From: Mobula hypostoma
Lineage: Eukaryota
Direction: 5' to 3'
Assembly: GCF_963921235.1 (NCBI RefSeq)
Contig: NC_086107.1
Location: 98,458,001 to 98,522,000 of the forward strand
Length of the DNA: 64,000 nucleotides
Shown here in pieces: positions 986-51,466 of the stretch. Each line of letters starts with the position of its first letter. Positions within the stretch are counted from its first letter, which is position 1. The notes under the pieces were generated by a model. The model was not told the DNA's origin. It did not search any database and saw only the letters and a program-made list of their open reading frames with translations. Made by a program: the position numbers and the translations under genes.

Positions 986-1129
986 CATTCAGATGAGGAG
1001 CCCAAATTGCTGGAACTTCAACATTACCCGGGGTTCAGCGCATTGCAGCCCACCCCTCTGCCCAATGAGACTTCACTGGACCAGATCCTGGATAATGTGC
1101 TAAAAGCTCGTGGTCATTTGAAGAAACAG
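986..1129 (+). CDS. FAM227A: FAM227A exon, HSDEEPKLLELQHYPGF...ARGHLKKQ (144 nt, phase 0-0)
   Basis: Pyrimidine tract ending ttcag at 985; donor CAG|gtcggt at 1130; YPGF..PTPLP motif of FAM227. Confidence 0.85.
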
Positions 1130-4100: not shown

Positions 4101-7100
4101 TGATGGCATGAACATTGACTTCTCTAACTTCTGTTAATGCCCCACCTCCTCTCTGTACCCCATCCGTTGTTTATTTATTATATATATATATACTCTTTTT
4201 CTCTCTCTCCTTTTTCTCCCTCTGTCCCTCTCACTATACTCCTTGCCCATCCTCTGGGCTTCCCCCCTCCCCCGTTCTTTCTCCCTAGGCCTCCCATCCC
4301 ATGATCCTCTCATATCCCTTTTGCCAATCACCTGTCCAGCTCTTGGCTCCATCCCTCCCCCTCCTGTCTTCTCCTATCATTTTGGATCTCCCCCTCCCAC
4401 TCCCACTTTCTAATCTCTTACTAGCTCTTCTTTCAGTTAGTCCTGATGAAGGGTCTCGGCCTGAAACGTCGACTGTACCTCTTCCTAGAGATGCTGCCTG
4501 GCCTGCTGTGTTCACCAGCAACTTTCATGTGCGTCGCTTGAAATTCCAGCATTTGCGGATTTCCTCGTGTTTGCGAGGTGAAAGGCGAAACTGGGAGGGG
4601 GGAGGGGTGACGCTGGGAAGTTAATTGGTGAGAGAGATACAAGGCTGGATACAAGGGGAACCCCCCCCTTTCTTCCGTGGCCTTCTGTCCTCTTCTGTCA
4701 GTTTCCCCCGATGGGTGTATCCTGTCTTTATTTCAGGTTTCCGGCAACTATAGTTTTTGTTTGTTTCTTTGGGAGAGTCTTGGGCCTAGAGGAGAGGGAA
4801 TGACATGAATCTGGATGCACTTCCCCACAACCTTCCTCCGTGAGTTCCTGTACTCACCACGTTAATCCTTCTTTTCTGTATTCCTACATGCCTCAAAGGT
4901 CCTATTAATACTGCCTTCTGCGGCTACCCACAATGACTTCCCACACCCCAGGGTTCCAACTACTCCAGCTATGCCTCCATTTGCCCTCCCGTGGGTGCTT
5001 CTGGATGCTTATAATCCCCACCTCTTGTGGATTCCGGTTTCAGCCCCACTGTCTCCCCCTGCCCCCAGCAATCTGCCTGAGTTACTCACAGGCAAATGTG
5101 AAATATGGCAGGAGAGAGGGCCAATAACACCTCCAGCTAACAAAGACACTGATGTTCATGAAGCTCTGACCATGTCTGGGATTCACTATGGGCTCCGACA
5201 CTGGTCAGACCCAGGCTAGGGTTCCAGGTCAGAGTCAGAATTGGGTTGTAGGACCAGGGTCTGGGCTCCAGATTGAACCCACTGTGAAAGCCAGACTTAA
5301 ATTGCAGTTCTGATGTAACTGAGCTCAGTTTGCCTCCTTGAAGCAGGACAAGTGAAGAGGACATCGGGCCAGGAATCACGAGGGTTCAGAAAGTAAATGA
5401 TATCCTGCATTAGCACACTTGAATTTTATAGTAATCTTTCCTATTCATCTGTCAGATGTGGATGGTTAAAACTGCATTCTGTTTTCCATTAATATTAGCC
5501 CTTGCCTGCACTTTTCTTGCTGCCTGCCCCAGTTCCCTGACTGGTTTCCCCCGATGCTTAATTCTTAAACTCACTCTGGCTAACACCAACTGTTGTCTCC
5601 AATGCAGACCGGCTATATTGCTGACTTTCAGCAGATGCTCAGCTCCCCAGTGGTGCAGGACATCCTTCTAGACAGCTTCTGGTGGTTTTTCCTGCATGAG
5701 CAGAAGGTGAGATTGTGCTGTAGCGAACGTTGGGTTATTTTTTTTACACTGCGTGCTGCTCACACCATTCATCCATACAGTACGGTGCACAAGGTACATA
5801 TATAGCTGGGGTGCCTAAGACTTTTGCACAGTACTGTATTTGTCAACGTGGAACAGAGAGTAAGTTTGTAAATCTGGTGGGAGCAAAGGATGTTGGGAGT
5901 GGCAAGGGTAGAGTGCCGTGGGAGGGGTGTTTGAGCAGGTGGCAGAGAAGGAGTGCCAGGGGGCGGGGTGTGGCGCTGGTGTAGTCACACCCAGTCCTGA
6001 GACACCAGGCAAGGTCATTTAATTCCAAACAATCGGTTTATTGATCATTACAGAATGTCTCTATATTGCTTCCCTCTCCCTTCCCCTTTTCCCAACCATG
6101 ATTCCCCTCTCCCTGCCCCCTTCCCACTCTCAGTCCACAATCGAGACCCATATCAGAATCTGATTTATCATCACTCACAGATGTCATGAAATTGTTTTTT
6201 TGCGGAGCAGTACAGTGCAAAACAAAACATAAAGTTACAACAGTACTATGGAAAAGTCTTAGGCACCCTAGCTATCTCTATCTATCTATATATCTATAGT
6301 TACTACATATCTGTAGTTACTGTGAAGGTTTTACACAATGCTGCAGGGAATCTGACTATGCTGTTTCTCTGATGCAATGCAACAGATTCAGGATTGTTTT
6401 TAATGTCATTCTCAGTACACAAGTGTAAAAGAGAATAACATAATTGTACTCCAGATCTGATGAAGCACAATATGATAAAGAACTCAATAATTACAAAAAC
6501 ACTATAGCTACAAATACATAAGATAGCTTATGTACATTGATTGCATGTACAAAAAGTGACACGCATTTCATCAGGACTGAAAGGGTCTCGGCCTGAAACG
6601 TCTACTGTTTACTCTTTTCCATAGATGCAGCCTGACCTGCTGAGTTCCTCCAGCATTTTGTGTGTTACTCTGGATTTCCAGCATCTGCAGAATCTCTTGT
6701 GTCATTGAATGATCCATTATCTTTTGCCACTGCACCAAATTTTATTCCATAATTCCCCTTTCCTCTGAGCCCCACATCCTTTTAACTTTTCGACCAGCCT
6801 GCTGCTATGTGTCATCAAGTTGTACCCTCACAGAGTCTCCTGGTTTTGTCTTTAAAATTCACTTACTCATAAGATTCGGCCTTCTCTGTGCTGAGTGCCC
6901 TTGAGTAACCTCTGCCTCTAAATGTGGATTTCTGATCCCTTCAGGATGACTCCAACAATTGTCCTCCCACCACCCACCACCACCACTCTCAGATTGGTCT
7001 GTACCCTGACAATCTCTTTCACTGATTTCTTACCAGCAAACTCTTAGTCGTCCAGTGCCAACAAACATTGGAATGGTAGTGAGAGCCTGTGAATTTTCCT

Positions 7101-10100
7101 CAGAGTCTGGGGTGCATTTCATCTGAACCCACTTTCAGAAGTATCAGACCCTGCAAGTATACACACAGTGGCCACTTTATTAGGCACAGGAGCGGGAGTG
7201 GTCTCATAAAGTGGCCTTCTGCTTTATGTGGTCTTCTGCTGCTGTAGCCCATCTCCTTCAAAGTTCAACGTGTTCTGCATTCACCAAAGCTCTTCTAGAC
7301 ACCACGGTTGTAATGCACGGTTATTTGAGTTACTGTTGTTTTCCTGTCAGCTTGAACCAGTCATGCCATTCTCTTCTGGCCTTTCTCGTTAACAAAGCAT
7401 TTTCACCCACAGAAAGCCGCTCACTGGATTTTTTTTTTTTGTTTCTCACACCATTCTCTGTAAACTCCAGATACTGTTGTGTGTGAAAATCCCAGCAGTT
7501 TCTGAGATACTCAAACCACCCCATCTGGCACCAGCAATCATTCCCCTGTCAAAGTAACTTGGATCATATTTCTTCCCAATTCTGATTTTTGGTCTGGACA
7601 ATACTTAACTAAATCTACAATAACAAAACCTCTTGCTTTTATGCTTTGAGTTGCTGCCACATGATTGGCTGATTAGATATTTGTATTAACAGGCAGGTGT
7701 ACAGGTGTTTCTACTAAAATGGCCACTGAGTGTTGTTGGAGAATTAAGGGCCAGTGAAATTATAGAACAAGTTACAAATAAAAAGGAAGAAAGATTAGTG
7801 GGCTTAAAGATGGATAAATCCTGAAGGTCTGATGTGATGTATAGTACAGTGCAAAAGTCCTGGGCACATTTATATAGCTACAGTGCCAAAGGTTTTTGCA
7901 CAGTACTGTAGTAGTTTCATGTATTGCACTGTACTGCTGCAAAAAAAAACAAATTACATGACATGTGAGTGATGATGAACCTGATTCTGATATGGGTGTC
8001 TATTGTGGACTGAGAGTGGGAAGGGGGCAGGGAGAGGGGAATCATGGTTGGGAAAAAGGGGAAGGGAGACAGGAAGGAGTGGGAAGCACCAGAGAGGCAT
8101 TCTGTGATGTGCAGAAAACCAATCGTTTGGAATCAAATGACCTTTCCCCGGTGTCTCAGGACTGGGTGTGTCTGCACCAGCACTGTCCCCACCCCCGGCA
8201 TTCCTTCTCTGCCACCTAGTCCGCACCCCTCCCACAGCGCTCCACCCTCACCATTCCTAATGTCCTTTGCTCCTGCCAGATTTACAAAGGTCAGTGCTGG
8301 GGTAGTTTTTTTTGGGGAAATTTCTGATAGACAGGACTAGTTTACGTTCAGAAAAGCAGGATTAATCACAGATAGGCCATCACTCTCCTCCAAAAGGACC
8401 ACAAACTTGTCATTTAATTTGGAGGCTTGCGTGCGTCAATGACCCGGACAGCTGTGCTGGCTGGAGTCAGGACCTTGTGCTTTGGCTCTTAGTAAGGTCA
8501 CCTGTGCCAAACAGGTCAAAGGACAGAGGCCAGACTAAGAGTGGTCCACCAGTCCTCCAGGTTTGGGGGTTCAGCTCAGGTAAAACAAAATTGTTACGAA
8601 AACAACAATGAAGAATCCTTCTACATCTGAGTGCGACGGTATTCCTGAGATTCCTCCCGGGGCTTGCATGACTGACAGGAATGAAAACCGAGAGGAAGCT
8701 ATTGACATGAAGGAAACCCTGAACCCCACCAGAGATGGAGGACCTTCATTGCTGCCGTAAACGCCAGCGGCGTAGTGGGCAGTAGGTAGTAAGTAAGGCC
8801 ATCGCTCTCTGAGAGTGAAGTATATGAGTGGGGTCTGTCACACAGCATGAACAATGAAAACCACCATCCATTTGCCATGAAATGCAACCCCATGGAAGTC
8901 CATGAAGTTGTATTTCAGATTACAGACAAAAAATATCGTCTAATCCGCCAATATCCACCTTACTGTTGCTTAAAGCCTTGCATCTTGATTCTGTTTAGTA
9001 AGCTGGCTCTGAATTCAAGATTATTTCTGATCAAACATCACAGGATACTATGAAACCAGGAGGCAATTGATCTTCTTCAGTGCTTAAAGGCATTTCTGCT
9101 TAACAGTGTGACCTGTGTACATTGGATACATAAGTGGAAAATGAAATCACGGTGAGTGGTCCCCCCATCCTGGGAATAGTGATTGCAAATTGAGATCTGT
9201 CACTCACTATGAGGAGTGATGGTTTGCAGGTCTTGATGAATAGTGAGCAGGAGTGATAGTGTGTCACTCGTGAGTACAAGTCATGATCTGCCAATTATTG
9301 TGAATAGTGAACAGGTTTTTCACACACGTTGAGCACAGATCATGGTCTCATTCATTGAATGGTGAGTGTAATTCAAGGGCTGCCACTCACTGAAAATTGT
9401 GACCACAAGTGATTGTGAGGTGATAACTCTCTGAGGCTAGTGCGATGAGTGACGCTCTGTCACCAGTGTGTTGGATTCCTGCAACATTGGACCTCATGAA
9501 TCTTATTCCCTTTCAGACGCACAGTTCTGTGCAGTGCCGACTGTTTGATCGGATATCCAAGAATTACGTGCAGCTGATCATGGAAGGCTGGAGCTGGTCC
9601 TTCGGTGACCGTTTCCTTCAGGTTAGTTCGGACAGCCCTCCGCCATGAGCTGTGTCCATTATCAGTTTCCTGTTCATACACTAACCTAGCTGCCGCTCTG
9701 CACAATTTCCCCTAGTGTGTGATGGATGGGATAAAGTTAGAATCACCCTTCACTGCCGAAGAGGCTGCAGACTGTGTGCCCCCACACCCGCATGCCCTCC
9801 ACAAACCCTTTCTTTCACTCTTCCACAGTTCCACACCTGATTCCATGTGCGTCCCTAACTCCTCTCTAATCTGCATTGAGTCCTGGGGTCATAGAACATA
9901 AAACATAGAAATCTACAGCACATTACAGGCCCTTCGGCCCACAATGTTGTCCAGACGACGTAACCTACTCTACAGACTGCCTAGAATTTCCCGACCGCAT
10001 AGCCCTCTATTTTTTTAAGCTCCATGTACCTATCTAAGGGTCTTATAAAAGATCCTATTGTACCTGCTTCCACTACCGCCACCGGCAGTGCATTCCACAC

Positions 10101-13100
10101 ACCCACCACTCTCTGTGTGAAAAGCTTACCTCTGTCATCCCCATTGTACCTACTTCCAAGCACCTTAAATCTATGCCCCTTCATGTTAGCCATTTCAGCC
10201 CTGGGAAAAAGCCTCTGGCTATCCACAGGATCAATGACCCTCATCATCTTATACACCTCTATCAGGTCACCTCTCATCCTCCGTCGCTCCAAAGAGAAAA
10301 GGCCAAGTTCACGCAACCTATTTTCATAAGGCATGCTCCCCAATCCAGGCAACATCCTTGTAAATCTCCTCTGCACTCTCTATATAGTATCCACATCCTT
10401 CCTGTAGTGAGGTGACCAGAACTGAACACAGTTCTCCAAGTAGGGTCTAACTAAGGTCTTAGATAGCTGTAACAGGCAATAATTCCCACAGAGTTTAGCT
10501 GTGAGACTGGCACTTGTAGTGACTAGACTAGATAATGTTGACCTCTTCCACTGTCAGTCTAGTCTGTGTGCACCATATGCTTCAACCATCACTCTGCCCG
10601 TTCACCCCAAAGCACCAACTGCTCCGTCCCACCTTCATCGTCCATCCCACAGTCTGCCACCATCCATCCTGCTCTCTGAAACCCACTATCCCAACCCAGA
10701 GAGCACAGTCTGCCACCATCCATCCTGCTCTCTGAAACCCACTATCCCAACCCAGAGAGCACAGTCTGCCACCATCCATCCTGCTCTCTGAAACCCACTA
10801 TCCCAACCCAGAGAGCACAGTCTGCCACCATCCATCCTGCTCTCTGAAACCCACTATCCCAACCCAGAGAGCACAGTCTGCCACCATCCATCCTGCTCTC
10901 TGAAACCCACTATCCCAACCCAGAGAGCACAGTCTGCCACCATCTATCTGCTCCCTGGTGCTGTCCTTCCAGACCTGGAGAATCATCAATTCTGTTGCAG
11001 GCACAGTTGCCAACGGTGATGTTGTCATTTGGAGAGTCTGAAGTAGATTGATCTGAGGCTCTAAACATCCTCCCTTGAGGATGCTCAAAGGAACAATGGT
11101 GAGGCTCAACTAATTGATTTTATAACTGACAGGTTGCTGGAATCTGGATTTGACCCTTCGGATAGAGGGAAGCTTAAGCAAGCTAACATAAAAACAGAAC
11201 CAGAATATTACAGGCCCACAATCATAACCAATTCTAGTGAAGTTGCTAAAAGGAGCCATTGGATGCACTCTGTGTGTTACTAAAAATACTCAGATGGTCT
11301 AGTGGTCAGAGGCAGTTCACCAGTTACTTATCCAGGAACTTCCATTGAGTCATAGAGTCATAAGGTTATCGATCATGGGAAAAGGCCTTTTGGCCCAACT
11401 CATTCATGGCACCTACCTGAGCTAATGCCATCGTCTCACTACCTCACTATTTTTTATTGCTCCCTTTTTTGCACTAATTATTTAATTTTACTCTCCTCCC
11501 ATCCGATAGGCGCTACAGGAGCCTCCGCTCCCGTACCAGCAGGCTCGAGAAGAGCTTCTTCCCTGAGGCTGTGACCCTCACATCACAGTGCTAAGCAGTA
11601 TTGCACCCATATTGGACTGTCTCAGTACTTTTATATTTGTATGCTATAGCACTTACTTTTTATATGCAGTTATTTTGTAAATAATACTATTCTTTTGCAC
11701 TTCTGGTCAGATGCTAACTGCATTTCTTTGGCTTTGTATCTGTACTCGGCACAATGACAATAAAGTTGAATCTAATCTAATCTATATTTTATATGTGTGT
11801 GTGTATATACCCGTACTATTGTAATTTATAGTTTTCTTTATTCTGTACAACACTGTACTGCTGCCGCAAATTAACGATTTTCACAACATATGCCTGTCAT
11901 ATTGAACCTGGCTTGCCTGTACAAGGCCTATATCCCTCTAATTCTTCCTGTCCAAGAACATGTCCAAATGTCTTGTATGCATTGTAATTGTACCTGCCTT
12001 TACCACTTCCTCTGGCAACTCATTCCACATACCTGTCACCATCTGTGTGAAAAACTTGACCCTCAGGTTGCCTTTGATGCCCTGTAATTTTAGATTTCCC
12101 TGCCTTGGGAAAAAAAGCCTGTATCCTGGTTCTGGTGATCTTATAAACCTCTTCAACATTACCTGTCAGCATCCTTCGCTCCAAGGAAAGCAGTCACAGA
12201 CTTATCCGCCTGAGTCTGGAATAGTCAGCATGCCTTTGTGCTTGTCTCACCGATGTCCTAGAGCTCTCCTGAGATCATAATGAAGGCTGGTGAGGGAAAG
12301 GTAGTGGATGTTGTTTACATGGACTTCAGCAAGGCCTTTGACAAAGTTGTGCAAGTGGGGCAGGGTCCAGAAGGTTCAGTCACTTGGCGTTCGGGATAAA
12401 GTAGGAAACTGGCTTCGGCATTGGCCGAGTGGGAGAAGACAGAGCAGTTGATCTTGTCTCTGACTGGAGGTCTGTGACGAGTGGTGTGTCGCAGGGATCG
12501 GTGCTGGCTCCATTGTTGATCATCTAAGTTAATGATTTAAATGAGGACGTGGTAAACTGGATCAGAAAATTTACGGATGACACCCGGGAGGGGGGAGAAG
12601 ATGGCGGCGCGACGGCAGCGCGCGCGACCACTTCGGTGATGATATCTGTTATCTGTCAAGTAGGGGACCGTGCACAATTCTGATTTGATGGAGATAAACG
12701 CAAGGGCATGAAGGAACATCTGGAAAATTTCTGAAATGCCTGCTTCGCTGTCGCTGCTACTGTGTGGTAACCGGAATCTCCGGAGCAGAAGGCTCCGAAA
12801 TCCTCGGCTTTGCGTGTTTCAGCGGCCGGGGAGAGGTCGAAGGCGCTCGGCAGAGGATGGCGCTCGGGAGGCTGTATCGGAAAGGCTGGTCAGAAGATTG
12901 AAGTTTTCGGACGGATGGATTCAGTGTCGGCTGTGGTTGGCTGCTTCCAAGGCATCGGCAAGTTGACGGTGCCTGGAGGTTTATGGCAGGGAGTTTCTCC
13001 CTTTTGCCGCCTGCTATCGGGGACTCGGGAGTCGATCGACTCGGGACTTTGAGACTTTTTTTTTACTGTGCCCATGGTCTGTTCTTCATCAAATTATGGT

Positions 13101-16100
13101 ATTGTTTTGCACTGCTGTAACTATATGTTATAATTATGTGGTTCTGTCAGTGTTAGTCTTTGGTCTAACCTGTTTTCTGTGATATCACTCTGGAGAAACA
13201 TTGTATCATTTCTTAATGCATGTATGCATTTCTAAATGACAATAAAAGAGGACTGAGTGTTCTCATAACCTAATCTAATCTAAGATTGGGGTGTAGTGGA
13301 CAACGAGGAAGGCTATGAAAGCCTGTAGCAATATCTGGCCCATTTGAAAAAAAAATGGCTAAAAAATGGCAGATGGAATTTAATGCAGACAAATGTAAGG
13401 TGTTGCATTTTGGGAGGACAAACCAGGGTAGGACTTACACAGTGAATGGAAGGGCATTGAGGTGTGTGTTAGAACAAAGGGATTTTGGAATTAATTCATT
13501 CATTACGTGCCATGTCATATGACGTGGGCAGTCATGGTCTTGACCATGACTGTTCTTGGCAAATTTTTCCGCAGAAGTGGTTTGCATTGCCTTCTTCCGG
13601 ACAGTGTCTTTACACGATGGGTGACCCCAGTCATTATCAATACTCTTCAGAGATTGTCCGCCTTGCATCAGCGGTCGCATAACCAGGACTTGTGATATGC
13701 ACCGGCTGCTCATACGACCATCCACCATCTGTTCCGATGGCTTCATATGACCCCGATCGGGGGCTAAGCAAGTGCTACACCTTGCCCAAGAGTGACCTGC
13801 AGGCTAGCGGAGGGAAGGAGCGCTTTACACTTCCTTTGGTAGAGACATATCTCCACTCCGCCACCCAGATTTGGAAATACAGATCCATAATTTCTTCAAA
13901 GTACCAGCTCTCATAAAGAGAGCTTTTGGCACATAGGCCTTCATAAATCAGAGCACTGACTACAAGGGCTAGCATGTTATGTGGAAGACATTGGTGAGGC
14001 CAAATTTGGAGTATTTGCTACAGTTTTAGTCACCTACCTACAGGAAAGATATCAATAAGATTGAAAGAGTACAACAGGACATTGCCGGGACTTGAGGATC
14101 TGAATTATAGCGAAGGGTTGAATGGTTTAGGAATTTATTCCCTAGAGAAAAAGGGTGAATGGCAGGGGTATGGTCCAGGTGTGGAGAGGTGGGGTGAGGC
14201 AGGAAAACAGGTTGGCACAAACTAGATGGGCAGAAGGGCCTGTTCCTGTGCTACAGTACCCTATGACTACCTAGTCTCTCTTTATAATTCAAGCCCTCCA
14301 ATCCCTCCAATCCCATCAATATTCGTGTGAAACATTTCCACACCCTCTCCAGCTTAATCATATCTTCCCTATGGTAGGATGGCAATCACTCAAGTCATGT
14401 ATGATGTTCTCCAAAAGGGTTGTCTATTGATGGGTCCTCCGGTGGCTGCAGAGGCCGAGCTGGGATCTGCGTAACTCGGTGCTAGGGTGCATTCCCTTAA
14501 TGCCCGAACGTGACTTTGTTTAACATTGGGAGGCTGATGCGCGGTCAGCCACCACACCATCCTTGACAAGTTGAGGTCAGAGTCCAAGACGTGGGGACCC
14601 TTCACTGCTGCAGCCGCCTTCTGCTTTTATTTCCGAAGTGATGTGGCATCACCTTTTGCCAGCTCTACCATTGATGATGAAGAAGAAGAAGAAGAAGAAG
14701 AAAGCCCTTAACTCCGAGTGGAGTCATCGGGACGTCATCATGACGGCGTTTTTTTAGCAGGCTTTCTTATTTTTACGAGGCCGAGTTGCTAGCTCAACGC
14801 TCAACCCAGCATGGATGGAAAGCGTGCAAGGGAGCCGGCTGGATTCGAACTTGGCAGCCTTCACTCCGAAGTCGGGCTCTGATGCCGCTACGCCACCAGC
14901 CGTCAAGCTCTACCATTGAGGTCTTGGTTAAATCACTCTTAGTCTCGAGCCTCCCTTTGAACTTACAGGATCTCAGGAACTCACAACCCTCTCTACCATG
15001 ATTAGGTGAAAATCCTCGGAGAAGAACAAGGATCGATCTACAGTATGACAACCAGAATTGAGTACAATGTTCTAGTATGATTTCACCAACTTTTTGTAAA
15101 GTTGTAACATGAAGCCTCAATTTTTATACTCAGTGTTCATCACAACAAAGACAAGTCTGTCATATACCTTCACCATCTAGTCTACTTTTGCCACCACTTT
15201 CAGGAACTATGTACTTGCACATCAAGGTACCTGCGTTCTATAACATTCCCCAGGGGCACGGTGTACATCCTGCCCTGGTTTAACATCCCAAAATACATCA
15301 CTTTGCACATGTCTGAGTTAAATTCCACCTGTCATTTGTTTGCCCAGATTCCCAGTTGATCCAGATCCTGTTATAACTTGAGACACTGTTCTTCACTGTT
15401 CCCACACGAACAATGTTGGTGTCATCTGCAAACCTGTTAACCATGCCTTGTACATTCTCATCAAAGTTGTTGATATGGATGACAAGCAACAATGGGCCCA
15501 GCACCAGCCCCTGAGGCACACCACTAGTCATGCCATCTGTGTTCTCAATCAAATCCATAATATACACGACAAACAACAGTGGGCCAGCCTCAATCCCTGC
15601 GGCACACCTCTGGCTGTGGATCACCAATCTGGAAAAATAACTTCTTGTTACCACCTCTGACTACTTCCACCAAGCTAATTTTTTACTCAGTTGGCTAGCT
15701 CACCCTGAGTTCCATGTGATCTTGCCTTCCGGACCAGCCTACTATATTTCACCTTGTCAAAAGCTTTGCTAAAGTCTATGTAGACAATGCTTTTCATCCT
15801 GCCTTCATCAATCTTCTTGATCTCCTCTTCAAAGTTCTCAATGAGGTTCATGAGACACAACTTCCCTCACAGAATATCATTTTGACTATGCTTAATCTAG
15901 CTGTCTTGATTAATTAATTAATCTGTCTCTCAGTACCCTCTTCAGTGACTTTCCCACCACTAATGTTAGGCTCATTGGTCTGGAGTTCCCTGGCTTGTTC
16001 TTGCTCCTTCTTAAATAAAGGCACATGAACCACCTTACAATATTCCAGTACCCCACCCTTGGCCAATAATGATGTAAGTACTTCTGCCAAGGCCCCAGCA

Positions 16101-31100: not shown

Positions 31101-34100
31101 GGGGTTTCGACCCAAAATATTAAGCATTCCTCCTCCCCCAACAGATGCTGCTCAACACACTGGGTTCCTCCAGTGGGTTGTTTGCTGCATCTTCTCAGAT
31201 AGAGTGTCGCAGATTCTAAACACGGTCTGCATGAAAAATATTTTCCGCAGATTCTGCACCCCCCCCCCACCCCAAATGCTCTAACTTGTCATCTTGGACC
31301 TGTGCCCTCTGGTTTTAGACAGTGCATGAGGGAAATTTTCTCATTATCTACCCTATCTATGCCTTTTTTGTGTGCATTGCTTGAATTTCCAGCATCTTGC
31401 ACATTTCCTCGTGTCTGCCATCAGGTTCACAAATAGTTATTACTCCTCAACTATCAGGCTCTTCAACCAGAGGCGATATCTTCACTTGCCCCATTGCTGA
31501 ACTGTTCCCATAACCTATTAACTCACTTTAAAAGACTCTGCATCTCATGTTCTCAATGTTTTTTTTCTCAGTTCAAGCTGGTAATACCTGAAGTACGGGC
31601 ATAGCCAAGCAGACACGCATTTCTCAACTGCTAGGAACTTCTGGACGATTCTAATGGTGTTTAGTATTGCAGCTTCTGAAGATTTACATAGATATTGCCG
31701 TGTAGCCCTAATTGTTTAATACTATTGTGTAGTGTCTTTGAGATGATAACAGCTGTAGATATTACGATTGGGACAATGTAAACCCTATTCATGTTCTATA
31801 GTCTTTCAATTTATTATTATTATTATTTCTTTTTTCCCTCTTTCTTTATGTATTTGCACAGTTTGATCTTTTGTTCTTGCATATTGGCCGTACTCCATCC
31901 TACTGAGTACAGTCTTTCCTCGATTCTATTATATTTCTTGTATTTACTGTGATTGCTCACAAGAAAATGAATCTCAGGGTTGTACATGGTGACATACACA
32001 GTATGTACTTTGGTAATAAATTTACTTTGAACAAGGTCCCTGAAAGGTGGGGATGTAAAAGGGCAGTTATTGTATCTTCTGCAATTGCATGGAAAGTGCC
32101 ATGAGAAGGGTTGTGTTTGCTGGAAGTGGAAGAGCTTTGGAGGTTGACGGCTTTGCAAAGGGAATGGTCTCTCTCTACTGACACCCTTGTGGTTCTCTGC
32201 AACTACAAGTTTTTCTGGTATCTCACCTCCACATTAAGTTTGAATATATTACAAGAGACAGAAGAGTGGGGTGCTTTGGGATCCTTTGGACTGGATGCTC
32301 AAGGTAGAAACATTTCATTTAAAGAGGATGTTTGAGGGTGAAGGGACCAGGGCAAAACTAGTTACGTTTTGAATATTGCTTTCAATTCCACTTAACAATT
32401 AATGCTGATTTTCTGCTTTCAGCCTTCTACAGAAAGGAAAGAAAACACCTTATCAAGACTGCCACCAGATTCACCATCCAAACTGAAGAGTTCAGAAAGC
32501 CAACAGGAATCCATTACAGATCTGCTGGAAACCGAGACCTGCCAAAAGGACGAAGAGCCAGCCAGGTCCCCTGGTGAGAATGGAGCCATGTGTATGAATG
32601 ATGAGCAAAACATTATCAAATGCTGTGAATGAAATTCAGTGGATTCCTGTTAATTAGAACACCAATGGGACCAGTACGTTTTGGGCCAATTAAGCAGTTG
32701 CCCTAAATAGCTGAATATTCATGGAAATAGTCAAAAAGGTATAAAAAAGATGAACAACACACATAAAAGTTGCTGGTGAACGCAGCAGGCCAGGCAGCAT
32801 CTCTAGGAAGAGGTATAGTCGACATTTTGGGCCGAGACCCTTCGTCAGGACTAACTGAAAGAAGAGCTAGTAAGAGATTTGAAAGTGGGGGGGGGGGGAG
32901 ACCCAAAATGATAGGAGAAGACAGGAGGGGGAGGGATGGAGCCAAGAGCTGGACAGTTGATTGGCAAAAGGGATATGAGAGGATCATGGGATAGGAGGCC
33001 CAGGGAGAAAGAAAGGGGGAGGAGGGAAGCCCAGAGGATAGGCAAGGAGTATAGTGAGAGAGACAGAGGGAGAAAAAGGAGAGAGAGAAAAAGAGATATA
33101 TAATAAATAACGGATGGGGTACGAGGGGGAGGTGGGGCATCAATGGAAGTTAGAGAAGTCAATGTTCATGCCATCAGGTTGGAGGCTACCCTTTTTTTAT
33201 CGAAAAAGACGAATTATCATTTAACTGAGTAACATGTTGTGTCTTTAAATGAAATACGGGACAAGTTAGAACACTACCTTTGCTACTACAGTACTATAAA
33301 ACTGTGTATTAGTTCCTAATAGTTATTGATGGAGGAATTCATCTGGTATATGGTGCTGTGTTATTTTGATTGTCTGCAAATGAACACAATCAGCACAAAC
33401 ACCTAGTGCAGATAATGGACTGCCTTCATACAATGTTTTAGACGACTGCATCCTCCAAATCTTCATTTTCATTGTAACATTCAGGATGATTGTTGATACC
33501 TTCAAATTCTTCATAGTTCCACTTGTTGAAGTAGTGAAGTTGATTCATTTTCACCCCCGGCTGTCTCTGGCACCTCCAAGCATGAATGCTTGAAACTGCA
33601 GTGAACAAAACGGTTTGGAATTTCCTTTTGCAAACAAGAGAAAATCTGCAGATGCTGGAAATCTAAGAAACACACACTAAGTGCTGGAGGAACTCGGCAG
33701 GCCAGGCAGCATCTATGGAAAAAAGTACAGTTGACGTTTCAGGCCAAAAGCCTGGCCCAAAACATCGACAATTTACTCTTTTCGCTAGATGCTGCCTGGC
33801 CTGTTGAGTTCCTCCAGCATTTTGTGTGTGTTTTCTGAATTTCCTTACTGCTTATTTCTCACCAACTATCAGTGATGGTAGGGGTATGGAGGGCTATGAT
33901 CTGGGTGCAAGTCAATGGGAGTAGGCAGTTTAAATAGTTTGGCACGGACTAGACGTGCCAAAGTGTTTCTGCACTGTGCTTTTCTATGATTCCATGATGA
34001 CTCTATAACAAAAATTACTGCTTTTAAAACACAAACACATGCAGCTGATGATATTTAAAGACATTTCTGTCCATGCATGATGTAGTGTCTAATGGTCACA

Positions 34101-37100
34101 CAAGTGCACATGATTGACACTAGTTAGAAACTGTTCGGCAAGTCTCCTGCCCCAATTAAGTGGCATTGTGTCCCAAATAAATGAAGGGAATCCCCCCCCC
34201 CCCGGCTATTTTTTCGATTTGTTTTTGTCTTTTAAGAGTTGTCCCAAATAAGCAGCTTCCCCGACTAACCAATGGTCCAATTAACCGGAATCCACTGTAT
34301 TTGCATTTCGTTCTGAGGGTGGTTCATGTTGCAAAAAGGAATGCATCGAGTGTGCTTTCCATCGGGGTGAGATTGGGTTGCATTGGTGCTCTGTGAAAAA
34401 ACCCCATGCACAAAAGTACAAACGTCCTCTGTGTATGAAAGAGAGTAAATGCAGTCTCATGGTATCAGGTATAAAAGAGCAGTGTGATAATTGTAGAAGA
34501 CTAATCTTCATTGACTGGCCGCTGGTGGAGTGACATCAGCACTGGACTTTGAGGTGGCTGGTCCTGAGTTCAAATCCAGCCAGGTCAGAAGAAAATCCTG
34601 GCAATTTACTCTGTGTCATGAAAAACCCCACAGACAACTTCAGTAACCATAGGATCGCAATGAGTCAACGGCACTCAACAACAATCTTCACTTGATTGAT
34701 CTGTAGCCTGCAATTTTCCTCACCATTAACAACACCACCACCTTCTGTGTCATCAGCAAGAATATTAATCTTACTTTCGACATTCATATCCAAATTGTTA
34801 TTATATATGCGTATAGTAAGCAGAGAGGATTCCAGCACAGATGCCAGGTTATACAGTCCTTGAAACTTACAGAGTTATGGTCACTATTTCAAAATGCTCT
34901 CGCTCTCACACTTCAATCACTTGCCTGGTTACTTTCCCTCTACTATTGCCCCTTCTCCATTGGACTATCTCCAAAAGGCTCCAGTGAATATTCCCTTTAA
35001 ACCTTTTATAGTTTGGCCATGTCAGTTAATATTGAGGCAGTTAGAAGTCCTTGATATTTTAATTCAAATACTCATATACCTCCCTGTAATTTGTTTGTGC
35101 ATCTACTCATCACCGACTTGTATTGTGATACCAGCTCCTCACTCACAATTCCCTGGTCCTCGTTTACTTGGACATCCTAAATCTTAGAATATTGGGTTAC
35201 CAGTCCTGCCTTTCTTTCAATCATACCTCTGTGGCAGGAAAAGTATCATATTCATGTGCTGATCAGGGCTCTCAGTTTAACATTTTTACCAGTCAGACCC
35301 TTGCATTAAAATAGATGCAATTTCACCTTCCGTTGCTCCTGTGTGATTTATTACACCTCCATCTGCTTTGTACATTGAGCTGCCTCCTTTCTTTATTTCA
35401 ATGTATCCATCCCACAAAGGGACACATATTTTGTGCCCCATCCCCTGTTGTTAGACTAGACCACTAGATATTGGAGCAGAATGAGGCCACTCGGCCCATT
35501 GAATCTGCTCTTCTATTCCATCTTGGCTGATTTACTATCCCTCTCAACCCCCATTCTCATGCCTTCTCCCTCTAACCTTTGATGCCCTTACTAATCAAGA
35601 ACTTATCAACCCCCGCTTTAAATATATCCAGAGATTTGTCCTCCACAGCCATCTATGGCAATGAATTCCACAGATTCACCATCTGGCTAAAGAAATTTGT
35701 CCTCACTCCATGAACATCCTCTCCACGAACACTCTGTCTAGGCCTTTCAATATTTGATAGGTTTCAATAAGTTTCCCCTCCGCCCCACCCCCATTCTTTG
35801 AAACTCCAGTGAGTACATGCCCAGAGCCATCAAACGCTTCTCATACATTAACCCTTCCACTTCCAGGATCATTCTCATGAACTTCCCCTGGACCTTCTCC
35901 ACTGCTAGCACATGCAGTGTGTTCTTAGATAAGGAGCCCAAAACTGCTCACAATACTCCAAGTTTAAACCCTCCCCAACAGTGAAAGTGAACCTCTGTGC
36001 AAGGAAATTGGATCATTCCAGGTCTGATGCAACCTTTCCAACTTGTACAGGTTCCACCTTCCCCAAAGACAACCCCAGGGATCTAGATATCTAAACCCTT
36101 CCCTCTAGCTATATATCTGACCTATAATTCTTTCAGAAGCATTGACATTGGAACTAATCCAGAGATTACGACTTTAATATCCCATTCTTCAATCTACTAC
36201 TTATCTCCCAAGTGGCCAAGTGGTTAAGGTGTTCGTCTAGTGATCTGAAAGTCGCTAGTTTGAGCCTTGGCTGAGGCAGTGTGTTGTGTCCTTAGGCAAG
36301 GCACATAACCACACATTGCTCTGCGACAACACCGGTGCCAAGCTGTTTGGGTCCTAATGCCCTTCCCTTGGACAACATCGGTGGCGTGGAGAGGGGAGAC
36401 TTGCAGCATGGGCAACTGCCGGTCTTCCATACAACCTTGCCCAGGCCTGCGCCCTGGAAACCTTCCAAGGCGCAAATCCATGGTATCACGAGACTAATGG
36501 ATGCCTATATAATCTCCCTAAATTTGTGTTGCAGGGACCTCAACCACTTTTTAGCTTTGCCACTGTACCATTGTAGACCATAACATCTTCCCCTTCAGAG
36601 TGAACTGTATCTATTTTGTGCTATCATTGACCTTAATACAAGGGAAGTAACTCATCATTCTAGATTTGTGCCATAGCACCAAAGTACCCGTCTATTACCC
36701 TCACTATCAAATCCTCAGCGATACAACTCACTCAACCTTTTTCCAGCTTGGTGTAACAGTTTTAGAGTGAGATGCAGTCCCTGCCTGCCTCCCATCCTCT
36801 ACCTGGATGTCACCTACTTCTTCTCTGAATGCCTTTCCTTAAAATGCCAGATGACCACATCCAAAAATATGCTATCCTTGTAATTTAACCCTTGCAAACT
36901 CCACAAAACCAGTGCTTAAAAGTGGCTCAGCTGGAGACATTTTCCACTGATATGTTGAATGGGATTGATCACCAACATAAAAGACAGCTCAGAACTAGGT
37001 GCTCATTAGAATCTGTGCACCATCCGCAGCAGCAGAAATGTACACCACAACATTTTATAACCTCGTGCCTGGCATATCCTTGTTCAACCATCATATCAAA

Positions 37101-40100
37101 CCAGAACCTATGGGAAGCACAGAAGACCAGGAGCAGTATTGAGTCTGTGAAAATGAGCTCTGAAAGTGAAGCTGAAATCAGGACAATAACTGACAGAGAT
37201 AGGTGATCTCATAACAATTAGATCAGCTTGAACCTCGCAAATGACTGTACTGCTAGATCCATCTCTAACCACATCATTAAGTTCACCGATGACACAACAG
37301 TGGATGGCCTCATAAGCAACAATGGTGAGTCGACATCCAGAGAGGAGGTAGAACAACTTGTGGACTGATGCGAACACAACAACTTGAGTCTCAACATGGA
37401 CAAGACCAAACAGATCATTGTGGACCTCAGGAAGTTGCAGGCGAATCACTCCCTATCGCACATCAACTGCTCCTCTATGGAGAGAGCCAGGAACACCAAG
37501 TTTCTTGGCATGCTCATCACGGTTGATCTCACTTGGTCCTTCAACACCACCTCTTTAGTCAAGAAAGCACAGCAGCGCCTCCATTTCTTGAGGAGATTGA
37601 GGCAAACAAGGCTTCCTGCCTCCATTCTACCAGAGTACCATTGAGAATGTCCTGACCAGCTATGTCACCATCTGCTAATGAAATTGCAAGGCATCTGACT
37701 GCAAGGGCCTGAAACAGATTGTGACATCCCACTGACTGGGGTCTCTCTTCCCCACTCCACCTCACCCCACCCCAATATACCAGTGTTTGCAGAGCCCTCA
37801 GCATTGTCAAGGACCCCTTCCATCAGCCCCACAGTCTCTTCGATCCCCAACCATCTGGCAGAAGGTATCACAGTAGAAGAACAAGGACTACTACACTGGG
37901 TAACAGCGATTTTCCCCAGACTGTGAAACTTCTGAGCACCCTTCTAACACCTAGTATGCATTATTAATGGAAATGCCATTAGCATTATACTGTTGTATAT
38001 CTAACTTTGGCCACTTTATTAGGTACCTCCTGAGTGTGTGTACGTACGTATCTGCTGTTGTGGCCCATCTGCTTCCAGGGTCAATGTGCTATGTGTTCAG
38101 AGACGCTCTATTGCACACACTGTTGTAACGCGTGCTTATTTGAGTTATTATCACCTCCCTATCAACTTGAATCAGTCTGGCCACTCTCCTCTGACCTCTC
38201 TCATTATCAAGGTGTTTTCATCCACAGATCTGCCATGCTTTTTTTTGTTGTTCATACTATTCTTTAAACTCTAGAGACAGTTGAGCATAAAATATGCCAG
38301 GAGATCAGCTATTTGTGCAATACACAAACCATCTCATCTAGCACCAACAATCATTCCACAGTCAAAATCACTTAGATCACATTTCTTCCCCATTCTCTTG
38401 TTTGGTCTGAACAACTGAACCTCTTGACCATGTCTGCATGCTTTTTTTGCATTGAGTTGCTGCCACATGATTGGACGATTAGATATTTGCATTAACGAGC
38501 AGGTGCACAGGTGTACCTAATAAAGTGGCTACTGAGCGTATATGGTGCAGAAATGTTTACAATGCTGTGGAAGAGGGGCTTGTGATAGTAGAAAGTTAGC
38601 ATGGGCTGAATGGCTTCCTGCTGTGCTGTGACCGCTCTACAATTCTGTGATTCAATCCTCGTAGACTCTGAGCCATCGGTAAGCAGAGTGATTGTGAGAA
38701 ACTCCGGAATCAGCCACATCCCCCTTCAGAAAGAGGTGAGCCACGTGCATACGTTCCCACTACCAGCCCACCACACCACACCAGAAGCATTTTCATGTTC
38801 CTGTCCCAGCCAGACTGGAAGTGCAAAACTGAGAAGATGTTATGAACATCTGAACATCCAACATGCCATTCCTTCACCATTTACTTATCCTCTTACCACA
38901 TCCCAGAGTTTTTCAACCATCTACTCTTCCAACCTTCTGGTCTTCCAGTCCCACTCTTCATGCTCTCTTGCTATGACTCAAATCCAGCTCTCAATCCCAG
39001 TCTCCCATCGTCTCTCCATATCCCTCAAACCTACCATCTCACCAATCAAGCTTACCTACACATTTCCATTCCTCCCATAGATCTCAAACACACAACCCCA
39101 CTATTCACCATATCACTCAATGTCACCAGTCCACCTTCTCAGATCATTCCTTAAATCAAGCTAATCACCTGTCGCCTGATGAAGGGTCTCGGCCCAAGAC
39201 GTCGACTGTTTACTCTTTTCCATAGATGCTGCCCGGCCCGCTGACAGACTCCAGCATCTGTGTGTATTGCTTCAGATTTCCAGCATCTTCAGATTTTCTC
39301 GTGTCTCCGTCACCCTTCACCATGTTGCCCAAACCAACCCACCACAATAACTAATCTGTTAAATTCACCCCAACAATGAAACCTGCTAATCCTGCAGCTA
39401 AGGACATGCCTCGTTTATCTATCTACCTGCTCCCCAAATCGCTCAGTTCTGTATCCTGTCATTGTGTGAGTTAACCCTGAACAGTGACCATCAAAGCCCT
39501 CAGCCACACAAGTTCATCTCATTATATCTAGTAACACTACCAAACCAGCTACTAAATAACATTCCACCAAACCTAGCCCTTTATCTCTCAATTCTTTTCA
39601 TACCTTCAATCTGTTTTTCCATCTCTCCACAGTATCCTTTTATCATGATCTTTATCCTACTCCTTACCTATCCATCAGGCTAATCTCCCACCCATCCCTG
39701 CCTCACCATAGCTCTGACTTCTCCCTCTCCCAGTCCTCTCAATCTTCCCTCAACCCCCAAATATCTCCACTATCGGGTCTGGGGATTTTTCAATCCACGG
39801 GCTCTTTTAGGAGTCCAAGGACGAGTCAAAAACCCGTTGCTTTACGATTGTTTATTTGAAGTTTGAAACTAAAGGAAAGAACATAATGAAAAGACAAAGA
39901 CAAGACGATATTTGCAGTATCTGACATTTTCATACTGGGATAAAGCCACATTCCTGAGATAAGTGAAGAGCCAATGAGGAGAATGAAATATGATAAATCA
40001 TTATGAAACTAAAGGAAAGAACCTGATAAAAAGACAAAAACAAGATACTAAAACAAGAACAAAGACAAGATGGCAAATTTTGCAGAAACTGGTACTTTTA

Positions 40101-41744
40101 TACTGAGCTGAAGCCACATTTTTAAAACAGTGAAGGGCTAATTAAAACACTTTAGCCAATGAAAAATAAAAGATGATAAACCGTTATGTAACTGTTATAT
40201 TGCGTTGCCACCAGTAGGTGGAGTCTAACACCAGTTATTGTGAAAAATACAAGTTAAAACTACACACACAAAATACTGATGGAACACAGCAGGCCAGACA
40301 GCATCCATAGGAAGAAGCACACCTTACAACAACCCCCCCCCTTCTTTCCGCAGGGATCGCTCCCTACGCGACTCCCTTGTCCATTCGTTCCCCCCCCCCA
40401 TCTCTCCCCACTGATCTCCCTCCAGGCACTTATCCTTGTAAGCAGAACAAGTGCTACACATGCCCTTACACTTCCTCCCTCACCGCCATTCAGGGCCCCA
40501 GACAGTCCTTCCAGGTGAGGCGACACTTCACCTGTGAGTTGACTGGGGTGACATACTGCGTCCGGTGCTCCCGATGTGGCCTTCTATATATTGGCGAGAC
40601 CCGACACAGACTGGGAGACCGTTTTGCTGAACACCTACACTCTGTCCACCAGAGAAAGCAGGATCTCCCAGTGGCCACACATTTTAATTCCACGTCCCAT
40701 TCCCATTCTGATATGTCTATCCATGGCCTCCTGTACTGTAAAGATGAAGCCACACTCAGGTTGGAGGAACAACACCTTATATTCTGTCTGGGTAGCCTCA
40801 AACCTGATGGCATGAACATTGACTTCTCTAACTTCCGTTAATGCCCCTCCTCCTGTTCTTACCCCATCCCTTTTTTTTATTATTTTTTATTTTTTCCTTT
40901 TTTTCTCTCTCTCTTTTTTCTCTCTGTGTCCCTCTCACAATTACTCCTTGCCTGCCCTCCATCTTCCTCTGGCACTCCCATCCCCCTTTCTTTCTCCCTA
41001 GGCCTCCCATCGCATGATCCTCTCCCTTCTTCAGCCTCGTATCCCTTTTGCCAAACAACTTTCCAGCTCTTGGCTCCATCCCTCCCCCTCCTGTCTTCTC
41101 CTATCATTTCGGATCTCCCCCTCCCACTTTCAAATCTCTTACTATCTCTTCTATCAGTTAGGCCTGACGAAGGGTCTCGGCCCGAAACGTCGACTGTGCT
41201 TCTTCCTATGGATGCTGTCTGGCCTGCTGCGTTCCACCAGTATTTTGTGTGTGTTGCTTGGATTTCCAGCATCTGCAGATTTCCTCGTGTGTCCAAGTTA
41301 AAAGCTCCATAATTGATTATGGTTTGATCAAAATCTGGAGACATCTACATCCTAATGACAAAGATTATTCCTTTTATTCTCATGTTCACAAAAGATATTC
41401 GAGAACCGATTATCTTATACCTGATTTCCGATTTTCATCCAAAGTCCAGAAATGTGAATATGACGCTATCGTTGTTTCGGATCATGCGCCTTTAAGCTTA
41501 GCTTTTGAATTGCCTTGGCGTTTTCCAGAAAATTTATTACAAAGTTCGGACTTTGTCAAATTTATTGAGACTCAGATAAAAGATTTTTTTTCTTTTTAAC
41601 AATACGGGAGATGCGTTGAAATTGATTATATGAGATACATTTACAGACATCCCACCTCTCCCAGAAGTTCCGGGAGTCTCCTGCATATTGATAGTGGCTC
41701 CCGATGCCCGGAAATTATATACAATATCTCACAAATCGATTTTT

Positions 41745-41794
<50 letters not shown>

Positions 41795-49857: not shown

Positions 49858-49934
49858 CACACTCACCCCAGGGGCTAATCCCAGGACAGCCTTGGCACTT
49901 CCAGCTATGCTTGTTGCTAACAGAGTAATTGTGA

Positions 49935-50440
49935 ACAGTTTCGGGCTCCTCGTCTAAGAAAAGATGTGCTGGCATCGGAGAGGGTTCAGAGGAGGTTCAC
50001 AAGGATGATTCTGGGCGATCGTAGGAGGAACATGTGATGGCTCTGGGCCTGCACTTGCTGGCATTTAGAATGATGGGGGAGATCTTATTGAAACCTTTTG
50101 AATGTTGAAAGGACCTAGACAGAGGAGATGTGGAAAGGATGTTTCCCATGGTGGGGGAGTCTAGGACAAGAGGGCACAGCCTCAGGATAGAGGGGTGTCC
50201 ATTTAAAACAGAGATGGAGAGAGATTTATTTAGCCAGGTGAGAGGGCGTAAGTTCAAAGGAGATGCAAGGGGCAGTTTTTTGTTTACACAGCGTGGTAGG
50301 TTCCTGGACTGTGCTGCCTGGTGTGGTGGCAGAGGCAGATGTAGTAGAGACTTTTAAGGGGTGTTTAGATAGGCAGATGAATGTGAGGGAAGCATATGGA
50401 CATTTCTAGGCAGAAAAGATTAGTTAGACAATTGATGACT
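49935..50440 (+). mobile_element. CR1 3' fragments
   Basis: ERVQRRFTRMI; ERMFPMVGESRTRGHSLRI. Confidence 0.78.

Positions 50441-51422: not shown

Positions 51423-51466
<44 letters not shown>

What the first reader, a model, noticed from the sequence alone, without database searches (positions are those of the whole stretch)
4439..41195. Family of minimal hammerhead ribozymes in the introns, three with intact cores in the pre-mRNA sense
Seen: the motif stemI-CTGANGA-A-stemII(GGGT/GCCY)-GAAAC-GTH-stemI' has intact cores on + at 4439-4474, 25199-25236 and 41160-41195, and on - at 24959-24996. Decayed copies occur at ~3851-3888(-), ~17741-17778(-), ~32817-32852(-), ~39175-39207(+), ~48225-48258(-), ~51340-51375(+) and ~61270-61306(+). 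Stem III is reduced to the loopless palindrome ACGT, and there is an extra A between A9 and G10.1. Known: Penelope-like element pseudo-LTRs carry minimal type I hammerheads thought to cleave as dimers. Inference: several sense copies in one FAM227A pre-mRNA could dimerise in cis and cut the nascent transcript or release intronic RNAs.
Basis: partly seen in the sequence, partly recalled or inferred. Interest (0 to 1): 0.7.

Follow-up and report, generated by a model that had tools for sequence, protein, structure and literature searches.

The report
Penelope retroelement hammerheads in ray introns
The repeated motif is real, but it is the known minimal hammerhead ribozyme motif that Penelope-like jumping genes carry in their end-repeats, left as decaying copies in the introns of a ray gene, and it is unlikely to cut that gene's RNA.

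Summary
Observation confirmed: all 11 listed copies are there, and about ten more fragments. They are pseudo-LTR ends of 5'-truncated Neptune-type Penelope-like elements (GIY-YIG tail upstream, target-site duplications, inverted partner copies, 37-nt 'tail'), inserted on both strands of a devil-ray FAM227A-like gene. This minimal hammerhead, with its extra nucleotide after A9, was described in 2014, and this scan has noted the same family many times on other DNA.

The cis-dimer idea is not supported. There is no strand bias and no covariation among the window's copies, and decay is CpG-heavy. No same-intron pair is viable. The copies at 4438 and 25199 are predicted to be buried in duplexes with their own upstream antisense partners, and 41159 has a stem I mismatch. 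The gene has an intact full-length frame. The one PLE hammerhead tested with its protein needed that protein to cut.

Side result: about 20 nt past the predicted cut the repeat carries a pyrimidine tract and AG|ATG. Predicted RefSeq models of four ray genes enter the repeat at exactly that point, so sense copies may matter more as cryptic splice acceptors than as ribozymes. No RNA reads were examined.

The parts
986..54390 (+). FAM227A-like host gene, last 11 coding exons (986-1129, 5608-5706, 9517-9621, 17869-17998, 22082-22195, 28993-29096, 32423-32573, 38665-38735, 47331-47488, 49746-49844, 54363-54390); introns numbered 1-10 within the window
   Evidence: Pfam FWWh PF14922 on two exons; 400 of 400 residues equal to the C-terminal part of RefSeq model P0023, Mobula hypostoma FAM227A-like
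4438..4475 (+). minimal hammerhead motif, intron 1; core intact, G10.1-U11.1; 301 nt after the stop of a GIY-YIG tail
   Evidence: predicted paired with 3851-3888 in the pre-mRNA
3851..3888 (-). inverted partner copy of the same composite insertion (about 3750-4575); invariant core intact, C15.2>T and C17>T
3936..4139 (+). 3' tail of a PLE GIY-YIG endonuclease frame, 5'-truncated
   Evidence: tblastn to ray PLE proteins P0010, P0013, P0014; 85% identical to 40640-41304 over the whole tail and UTR
17741..17778 (-). decayed motif (U4>C, G12>A); a 10-nt direct repeat bounds 17618-17792
24869..25289 (.). one inverted-repeat PLE insertion bounded by a 15-nt target-site duplication; arms 92% identical over 181 nt; the two ends differ by 37 nt
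24959..24996 (-). motif on the antisense arm; core intact, G10.1-U11.1, GUU triplet
25199..25236 (+). motif on the sense arm, intron 5; core and both stems intact, GUU triplet
   Evidence: 36 of 38 nt predicted paired with 24959-24996
32816..32853 (-). decayed motif (G12>A, C15.2>T) at the end of a minus-strand PLE tail 32755-33191
33628..33836 (.). short inverted pLTR pair bounded by a 10-nt duplication; both halves break inside stem II or its loop; ends differ by 37 nt
39171..39208 (+). decayed motif (G12>A, A14>G), intron 8
39205..39228 (+). pyrimidine tract and AG|ATG of the pLTR; the point where the Hypanus sabinus FAM227A-like X1 model continues after exon 8
   Evidence: P0002 residues 428-493 align to 39226-39429, 66% identity, running into unique flank
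40260..41293 (.). largest insertion: inverted 60-nt pLTR piece (40262-40321, 97% identical to 41195-41254), truncated PLE frame, 3' UTR and pLTR; 10-nt duplication; ends differ by 37 nt
40322..40843 (+). PLE linker (C-X4-C-X2-C) and GIY-YIG endonuclease with CCHH residues, no RT
   Evidence: Pfam GIY-YIG E=6e-4, below the curated cut-off; 75-89% identity to ray proteins that continue into an RT
41159..41196 (+). motif in intron 8; core and stem II intact, G-A mismatch at the second pair of stem I
48220..48257 (-). decayed motif (A15.1>C, U16.1>C)
51338..51375 (+). decayed motif (A6>C, U16.1>A), intron 10, after a GIY-YIG tail at 50873-51063
51538..51575 (+). heavily decayed copy (13 departures) about 200 nt after 51338; the only close same-strand tandem pair
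61270..61307 (+). decayed motif (G12>A, G16.2>T) beyond the stop codon, after a GIY-YIG tail at 60825-61013

Best explanation
The motifs are the minimal type I hammerheads in the pseudo-LTRs of a very abundant Neptune-type Penelope-like retroelement of rays. Shown here: the motif sits 250-318 nt after the stop of a GIY-YIG tail, in insertions with target-site duplications, inverted partner copies and two alternative 3' ends 37 nt apart. Inferred from the literature: in the active element the tandem transcript is bound by the element's RT-endonuclease, reverse transcription starts inside the RNA some tens of nt past the hammerhead, and the hammerhead (a dimer-type or protein-assisted ribozyme) serves the element's own RNA processing. 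Most inserted copies span the cut site, so the template was uncut or re-ligated there. After insertion the copies decay, fastest at CpG. In the FAM227A pre-mRNA they are passengers that are spliced out and are most likely silent as ribozymes.
For: PLE context. Duplications and 37-nt tail in 3 of 3 duplication-bounded inverted insertions: (a repeat of 10 nt or more arises in 2.1% of random box pairs, 15 nt or more in 0.15%); 30-40 bp tail and inverted copies are PLE hallmarks (PMC8557442, PMC11167929). Module kept between subfamilies while the upstream UTR diverges: 28 of 308 non-CpG motif cells differ against 147 of 400 upstream. Decay after insertion: 55 of 177 CpG cells against 52 of 478 non-CpG cells differ, p=4e-9, and G12 is lost in 7 of 19 copies. 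No strand bias, no excess of intact sense copies. The same architecture in 73 distinct metagenome motifs with covarying stem I (28 of 73 with 4 or more Watson-Crick pairs; shuffled mean 4.4, maximum 11 in 2000), and 34 of 37 loci with a PLE protein hit have the motif downstream on the same strand. Minimal motifs show no monomer activity and low dimer activity in vitro (PMC4209133); the anole PLE hammerhead does not cut without its protein (PMC11167929).
Against: No cleavage assay and no RNA reads. Folding is a nearest-neighbour prediction that ignores the core's non-canonical pairs and bound proteins. The metagenome pattern was made from the window's motif and its hits fall into related families, so they are not independent. 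No full-length element lies in the window, so the clade rests on one linker motif. The inverted piece 40262-40321 stops 3 nt past the predicted cut, which could record a cut RNA (one case). The 25199 copy in isolation folds both stems with high probability. One of nine Xenopus retrozyme dimers did cut very well in vitro (10.64898/2026.07.22.740005).
Confidence: 0.9

Rival explanations
1. One reading: sense copies dimerise in cis in the FAM227A pre-mRNA and cut the nascent transcript or release intronic RNAs.
For: 6 of 30 ordered pairs among six sense copies have a complete core, five stem I pairs and a 4-bp helix III on paper; 4438 and 25199 are reciprocal. GUU still obeys the NUH rule (PMC3138052, passages). 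Intronic hammerheads of amniotes are proposed to act in mRNA biogenesis (PMC6155905, passages).
Against: All passing pairs are 14-37 kb apart in different introns; 0 of 4 same-intron ordered pairs pass. Both possible enzyme strands are predicted buried in duplexes of -59.8 and -68.5 kcal/mol with antisense arms transcribed earlier, stem probabilities 0.00. The double-hammerhead fold (-9.0 to -15.4 kcal/mol for the three mixed pairs) is weaker than the two monomer folds (-21.0 to -24.7). No covariation, no strand bias. A full-length frame is intact and annotated.
Confidence: 0.03
2. Sense copies affect host transcripts as cryptic 3' splice sites, not as ribozymes: the pyrimidine tract and AG|ATG about 20 nt past the cut give alternative terminal or cassette exons.
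For: 8 of 10 sense copies in the gene that cover the site keep the AG, with pyrimidine tracts (0.69-0.88) like the gene's own acceptors (0.62-0.94). RefSeq models enter the repeat peptide at exactly this codon in four genes: FAM227A-like X1 of Hypanus after the exon-8 end (P0002), CBFA2T1 X6 of Hemitrygon (P0026), arfaptin-1-like of M. hypostoma as an in-frame insert absent from arfaptin-2 (P0027, P0028), and HPCAL1 in both Mobula species in place of the normal C-terminus (P0031, P0037).
Against: These are predicted models, their read support was not seen, and they may be annotation artefacts in a repeat-rich genome. The peptide query began at that codon, so the shared start is partly set by the search. 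The FAM227A model that matches this window does not use the site. One hit, P0029, seems to read through from upstream repeat sequence without a splice. This rival does not exclude the best explanation; it adds to it.
Confidence: 0.35
3. Intronic copies are cut in trans: abundant transcripts of active elements, or the element's protein, supply the partner or the chaperone.
For: The anole PLE hammerhead is protein-assisted (PMC11167929). 39171 and 41159 keep a good substrate half (GUC and the 3' strand of stem I) and have no local antisense arm over the core.
Against: Only 9 bp would hold a trans partner. The protein-binding stretch in the anole element lies in the first 172 nt of the frame, and these copies end 40-85 nt past the ATG. 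No RNA ends at the cut were found in anole RNA-seq (PMC11167929).
Confidence: 0.04
4. The motif is not a ribozyme at all: chance likeness, or a hairpin with another role.
For: No Rfam hammerhead match. The monomer's lowest-energy fold for 4438 and 25199 is a rod in which G5-A6-N7-G8 pairs with positions 15.2-17. No covariation inside the window.
Against: All 11 invariant core positions, G10.1-C11.1, the extra nucleotide and the palindromic helix III match the published minimal motif; stem I covaries across distant relatives; core mutants abolish cleavage in the anole element (PMC11167929).
Confidence: 0.03

Closest known systems
Minimal hammerheads (min-HHR) in pLTRs of metazoan Penelope-like elements, including Xena, Poseidon and Neptune of fishes (Cervera and De la Pena 2014, PMC4209133; parts 1-2 of 4 read)
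   Same: Type I topology, 4-5 bp helix I, no helix III loop, palindromic 15.2-16.2, extra nucleotide between 9 and 10.1, G10.1-C11.1, dispersed single copies from truncated PLEs, and pairs 100-700 bp apart on opposite strands.
   Different: Helix II is 4 bp, shorter than the 7-8 bp of Schistosoma. Cartilaginous fishes are not named in the text read; the supplement was not read and may list them.
Poseidon element PAc of Anolis carolinensis (Frangieh et al. 2024, PMC11167929; parts 1-2 of 4 read)
   Same: Hammerhead in the pLTR close to an ATG; two internal RT start sites that give a 30-40 bp tail (37 nt here); uncut RNA is the main template.
   Different: PAc is Poseidon, and its frame starts at stem II. 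Here the linker is of Neptune type and the conserved ATG lies 19-23 nt after the cut. Protein assistance was not tested here.
Neptune-clade EN+ PLEs (Craig et al. 2021, PMC8557442; passages read)
   Same: C-terminal GIY-YIG with CCHH, CX2-5CxxC linker, inverted 5'-truncated copies, tail at one end.
   Different: The linker is shared with Nematis; no RT tree was built, so the clade is not proven.
Non-LTR retrozymes (PMC7229834, passages; 10.64898/2026.07.22.740005, parts 1-3 of 5)
   Same: Type I hammerhead, PLE-derived, dimer-dependent in vertebrates.
   Different: Retrozymes are head-to-tail arrays of 50-1000 nt units. No tandem array here holds the motif.
Conserved intronic hammerheads of amniotes (RECK, DTNB; PMC6155905, passages)
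   Same: Type I hammerhead inside an intron, sense strand.
   Different: Those are single, strongly conserved, full motifs with tertiary contacts. These are many decaying repeat copies on both strands.

Membership tests
PLE min-HHR | Core C3U4G5A6-N-G8A9, G12A13A14, A15.1-U16.1, H17 | tested here: met
   Majority state at all positions; complete in 6 of 14 copies that cover the motif
PLE min-HHR | Helix I of 4-5 bp and helix II closed by G10.1-C11.1 | tested here: met
   86.7% of cells paired against 15.6-45.6% for slid controls (the structure was drawn from these sequences); C11.1 in 13 of 19
PLE min-HHR | Extra nucleotide between 9 and 10.1; loopless palindromic helix III | tested here: met
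   A in 16 of 16; ACGT majority
PLE min-HHR | Location in the pLTR of a PLE | tested here: met
   250-318 nt after a GIY-YIG tail in 4 copies checked
PLE min-HHR | Compensatory changes in the stems | tested here: inconclusive
   Not seen among 13 window copies (score 0.152 against shuffled 0.161); clear in stem I of 73 distant motifs; no genome-wide set of ray copies was available
PLE min-HHR | Self-cleavage as a dimer or with protein | not testable with these tools
   Needs an assay
EN+ Penelope-like element | C-terminal GIY-YIG with CCHH, joined to a PLE RT | tested here: met
   Pfam GIY-YIG below cut-off at E=6e-4; 75-89% identity to ray proteins whose sequences continue upstream into RT motifs; no PLE RT next to these copies in the window
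EN+ Penelope-like element | Inverted truncated copies, target-site duplication, 30-40 bp tail at one end | tested here: met
   3 inverted insertions with 10-15 nt duplications, each with ends 37 nt apart; of 14 hand-set elements searched, 6 gave no repeat of 8 nt or more, 4 gave 8-9 nt (not trusted) and 4 gave 10-15 nt
Neptune clade | CX2-5CxxC linker before the endonuclease | tested here: met
   C-X4-C-X2-C in the frame 40311-40841 against PMC8557442; shared with Nematis
Neptune clade | RT phylogeny | not tested
   No reference PLE set at hand
Rfam hammerhead families | Covariance-model score at the family threshold | tested here: not met
   No hammerhead family among matches with E<=10
Non-LTR retrozyme | Head-to-tail array with a complete hammerhead in at least two consecutive units | tested here: not met
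   None of 14 tandem-repeat rows covers a motif; the only close same-strand pair, 51338 and 51538, is decayed
Domesticated intronic hammerhead | Orthologous copy conserved across species under selection | tested here: inconclusive
   Only 39171 could be traced to another family (Hypanus model P0002) and its core is dead here; orthologues of the three 'intact' copies were not seen

The most novel reading that the evidence does not exclude
The ray pLTR is a joint hammerhead and 3' splice-site module: the CUGA of the core doubles as branch point (A6 lies 42-46 nt before the AG), the linker is the pyrimidine tract, and AG|ATG opens the element's frame. Hammerhead folding or cutting and splicing would then compete, and the many sense intronic copies would seed repeated new exons in ray genes, some kept between species (HPCAL1 in two Mobula species).
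Probability: 0.1. Interest if true: 0.6.

Novelty: new member of a known kind. Interest (0 to 1): 0.2.

Why it matters
As found, little: it extends a known PLE motif to a ray at high density (14 motif-covering copies in 64 kb). What PLE hammerheads do in vivo is still open, and this family offers many natural variants and exact insertion ends for testing it. The splice-acceptor side result, if RNA confirms it, would show how such a repeat actually touches host transcripts, much as Alu exonisation does in primates (recalled comparison).

Tried and rejected
Whole genome: none held, so no genome-wide copy count, covariation or strand test. Rfam: no hammerhead match; the miRNA-like hits at 24982-25201 only reflect the long inverted repeat. 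A strict ray-type pattern found nothing in metagenome contigs, and a looser one nothing in viral contigs. Sequencing runs: no RNA holder listed; no reads were laid on the window, so expression, RNA ends and presence in a sister species remain open. Similarity look-up in earlier findings by sequence gave nothing, nor did a word search for the splice-acceptor idea. Paper searches for the motif in cartilaginous fishes or rays and for PLE exonisation or a pLTR acceptor listed no paper on this family; judged from listings only. No paper read gave rates for G10.1-U11.1 or GUU; that both lower activity is recalled. Rejected: snoRNA or miRNA readings (scores far below threshold); retrozyme array; coding function of the two other frames past the AG (stops in many copies). 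Clustering of 5' ends at the cut: fragment starts near the motif lie at -40 to +3 and only one is within 5 nt of the cut, so no claim is made. Left out of counts: two minus-strand fragments at E about 0.005 (23297, 58205); sense copies 6565 and 51538 in the pair test; one row of alignment A1 (51538) is shifted at its 3' end.
Full report
1. The observation. A pattern made from them gives 4 exact and 9 near matches, and none in 100 shuffles. A profile built from the 11 copies finds 21 fragments at E<=1e-3, 12 on + and 9 on -; 14 cover at least 33 of the 38 motif positions. The invariant core is complete in 6 of these 14: 4438, 25199, 26223 and 41159 on +, 3851 and 24959 on -. None equals the majority sequence. 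4438 has G10.1-U11.1, 25199 has a GUU triplet, and 41159 has a G-A mismatch in stem I. Rfam reports no hammerhead; I take this to mean its models do not cover the loopless form (inference).

2. The host. Eleven coding exons on + give 400 of 400 residues of the RefSeq model of Mobula hypostoma FAM227A-like. The three 'intact' sense copies lie in introns 1, 5 and 8 of the window, 20.8 and 16.0 kb apart, with four and three exons between them. 61270 lies past the stop.

3. The carrier. Four copies checked follow the stop of a GIY-YIG tail by 250-318 nt. The longest tail (40322-40843) hits Pfam GIY-YIG weakly and is 75-89% identical to ray proteins that continue into an RT. Its C-X4-C-X2-C linker marks Neptune or Nematis elements (PMC8557442, passages). 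Three insertions are inverted pairs bounded by 10-15 nt duplications: 24869-25289, 33628-33836 and 40260-41293. In each, the two ends lie 37 nt apart in the element (40 and 77, 48 and 85, 45 and 82 nt after a shared ATG). This is the 30-40 bp PLE tail, which in the anole element arises from two internal RT start sites (PMC11167929, parts 1-2 of 4). Of 14 elements searched, 6 gave no duplication and 4 gave only 8-9 nt matches that I do not trust.

4. Selection on the element, decay in the host. Between subfamilies the motif is kept (28 of 308 non-CpG cells differ) while the upstream UTR drifts (147 of 400; alignment there is poorer). Within copies, CpG positions differ in 55 of 177 cells against 52 of 478 elsewhere, p=4e-9; the general base G12 is lost in 7 of 19. 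There is no covariation among 13 window copies (0.152 against shuffled 0.161). Stem I, left free in the pattern, has 4 or more Watson-Crick pairs in 28 of 73 (shuffled partners: mean 4.4, maximum 11 in 2000) with C-G, G-C, A-U and U-A exchanges. 37 of 121 loci hit the ray PLE proteins (0 with shuffled proteins), and in 34 of 37 the motif lies downstream on the same strand. These motifs form related families and are not independent, but they show the structure is real and tied to PLEs widely.

5. The cis-dimer idea. Strand ratio in the gene is 11:8 (p=0.65), and core-intact copies are 4 of 8 sense and 2 of 5 antisense. Among six sense copies, 6 of 30 ordered enzyme-substrate pairs pass on paper. 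All are 14-37 kb apart, all use 4438 or 25199 as enzyme, and 0 of 4 same-intron pairs pass (6565 and 51538 left out as broken). 4438 and 25199 each have an antisense partner upstream in the same insertion, transcribed first; folding puts 35 and 36 of their 38 nt outside the motif's own stems, nearly all in that duplex, with stem probabilities of 0.00. The double-hammerhead fold is weaker than the two monomer folds for every pair (the model does not score the core). In the literature, single minimal motifs did not cut and tandem ones cut weakly (PMC4209133, parts 1-2 of 4); the anole hammerhead needed its protein and left no RNA-seq ends at the cut (PMC11167929); 1 of 9 Xenopus retrozyme dimers cut well (10.64898/2026.07.22.740005, parts 1-3 of 5). 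Against my reading: 25199 alone folds both stems well, and one inverted piece ends 3 nt past the cut. No RNA data were examined.

6. A side result. The Hypanus FAM227A-like X1 model leaves exon 8 and continues at the codon that matches 39226, right after a pyrimidine tract and AG, 23 nt past the cut of copy 39171, then runs into unique flank. So that insertion appears shared with stingrays, and the repeat can be annotated as a splice acceptor. 8 of 10 sense copies keep the AG. A profile search with the downstream peptide gave 7 proteins at E<=10 among 2325 candidates. Four of them, in three genes, join known host sequence directly to that codon: CBFA2T1 (junction judged from recalled sequence), arfaptin-1-like (two isoforms; an insert absent from arfaptin-2) and HPCAL1 (replaces the C-terminus; also in M. 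birostris). One (P0029) seems to read through without a splice, and two are of unknown genes. All are predicted models, and the query itself began at that codon. A6 of the core lies 42-46 nt before the AG in a branch-point-like word (consensus recalled). PLEs are known to carry a 5' UTR intron in the pLTR (PMC8557442, PMC4209133), so this may be the element's own acceptor. I found no paper on it in searches (listings only).

7. Comparison and verdict. The architecture, the extra nucleotide, the dispersed copies and the opposite-strand pairs are all in PMC4209133. Cartilaginous fishes are not named in the parts read; its supplement and the preprint's tables, not seen, may cover them. Earlier notes of this scan report the same family on this and other genomes; I stated my reading before seeing them and did not check their copy numbers. 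Verdict: a new member of a known kind, most likely inert in this gene. Interest 0.2.

Noticed in passing
window 47489-49745 (+): Intron 9 of the gene has AT-AC ends with an ATATCCTT donor and a U12-like branch word; splicing it this way gives the exact RefSeq frame. The Hemitrygon model P0024 reads through this donor. U12 label from recalled consensus.
   Followed up: partly
window 39205-39429 (+): pLTR acceptor AG|ATG used in predicted models of several ray genes; insertion apparently shared with Hypanus.
   Followed up: partly
window 40262-40321 (-): Inverted pLTR piece stops 3 nt past the predicted hammerhead cut, as if copied from a cleaved RNA; one case.
   Followed up: partly
window 6565-6600: The 5' half of the motif is locally inverted in front of the rest of the copy; the junction falls at the start of stem I.
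   Followed up: no
window 25199-25236, 4438-4475: The monomer's lowest-energy fold is a rod in which core positions 5-8 pair with 15.2-17; a possible built-in off state.
   Followed up: partly
window about 41294-45300 (+): Decayed L1-like ORF2 (Pfam RVT_1 at 43270-43887) directly after the PLE insertion 40260-41293.
   Followed up: no
window 10648-10957 and 58453-58971: Minisatellites of 56 nt (5.6 copies, 98% matches) and 32 nt (15.9 copies).
   Followed up: no
window 21637-22047: A diverged minus-strand PLE linker and GIY-YIG piece and a plus-strand pLTR tail end about 35 nt before the exon-5 acceptor.
   Followed up: no
window 23743-23805 (-): tRNA-like stretch just under the Rfam threshold (27.5 bits against 29), possibly a SINE head.
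   Followed up: no
L020, L023, L064, L072: Metagenome loci with two minimal hammerhead motifs on opposite strands close together, the same inverted arrangement as in the window.
   Followed up: no
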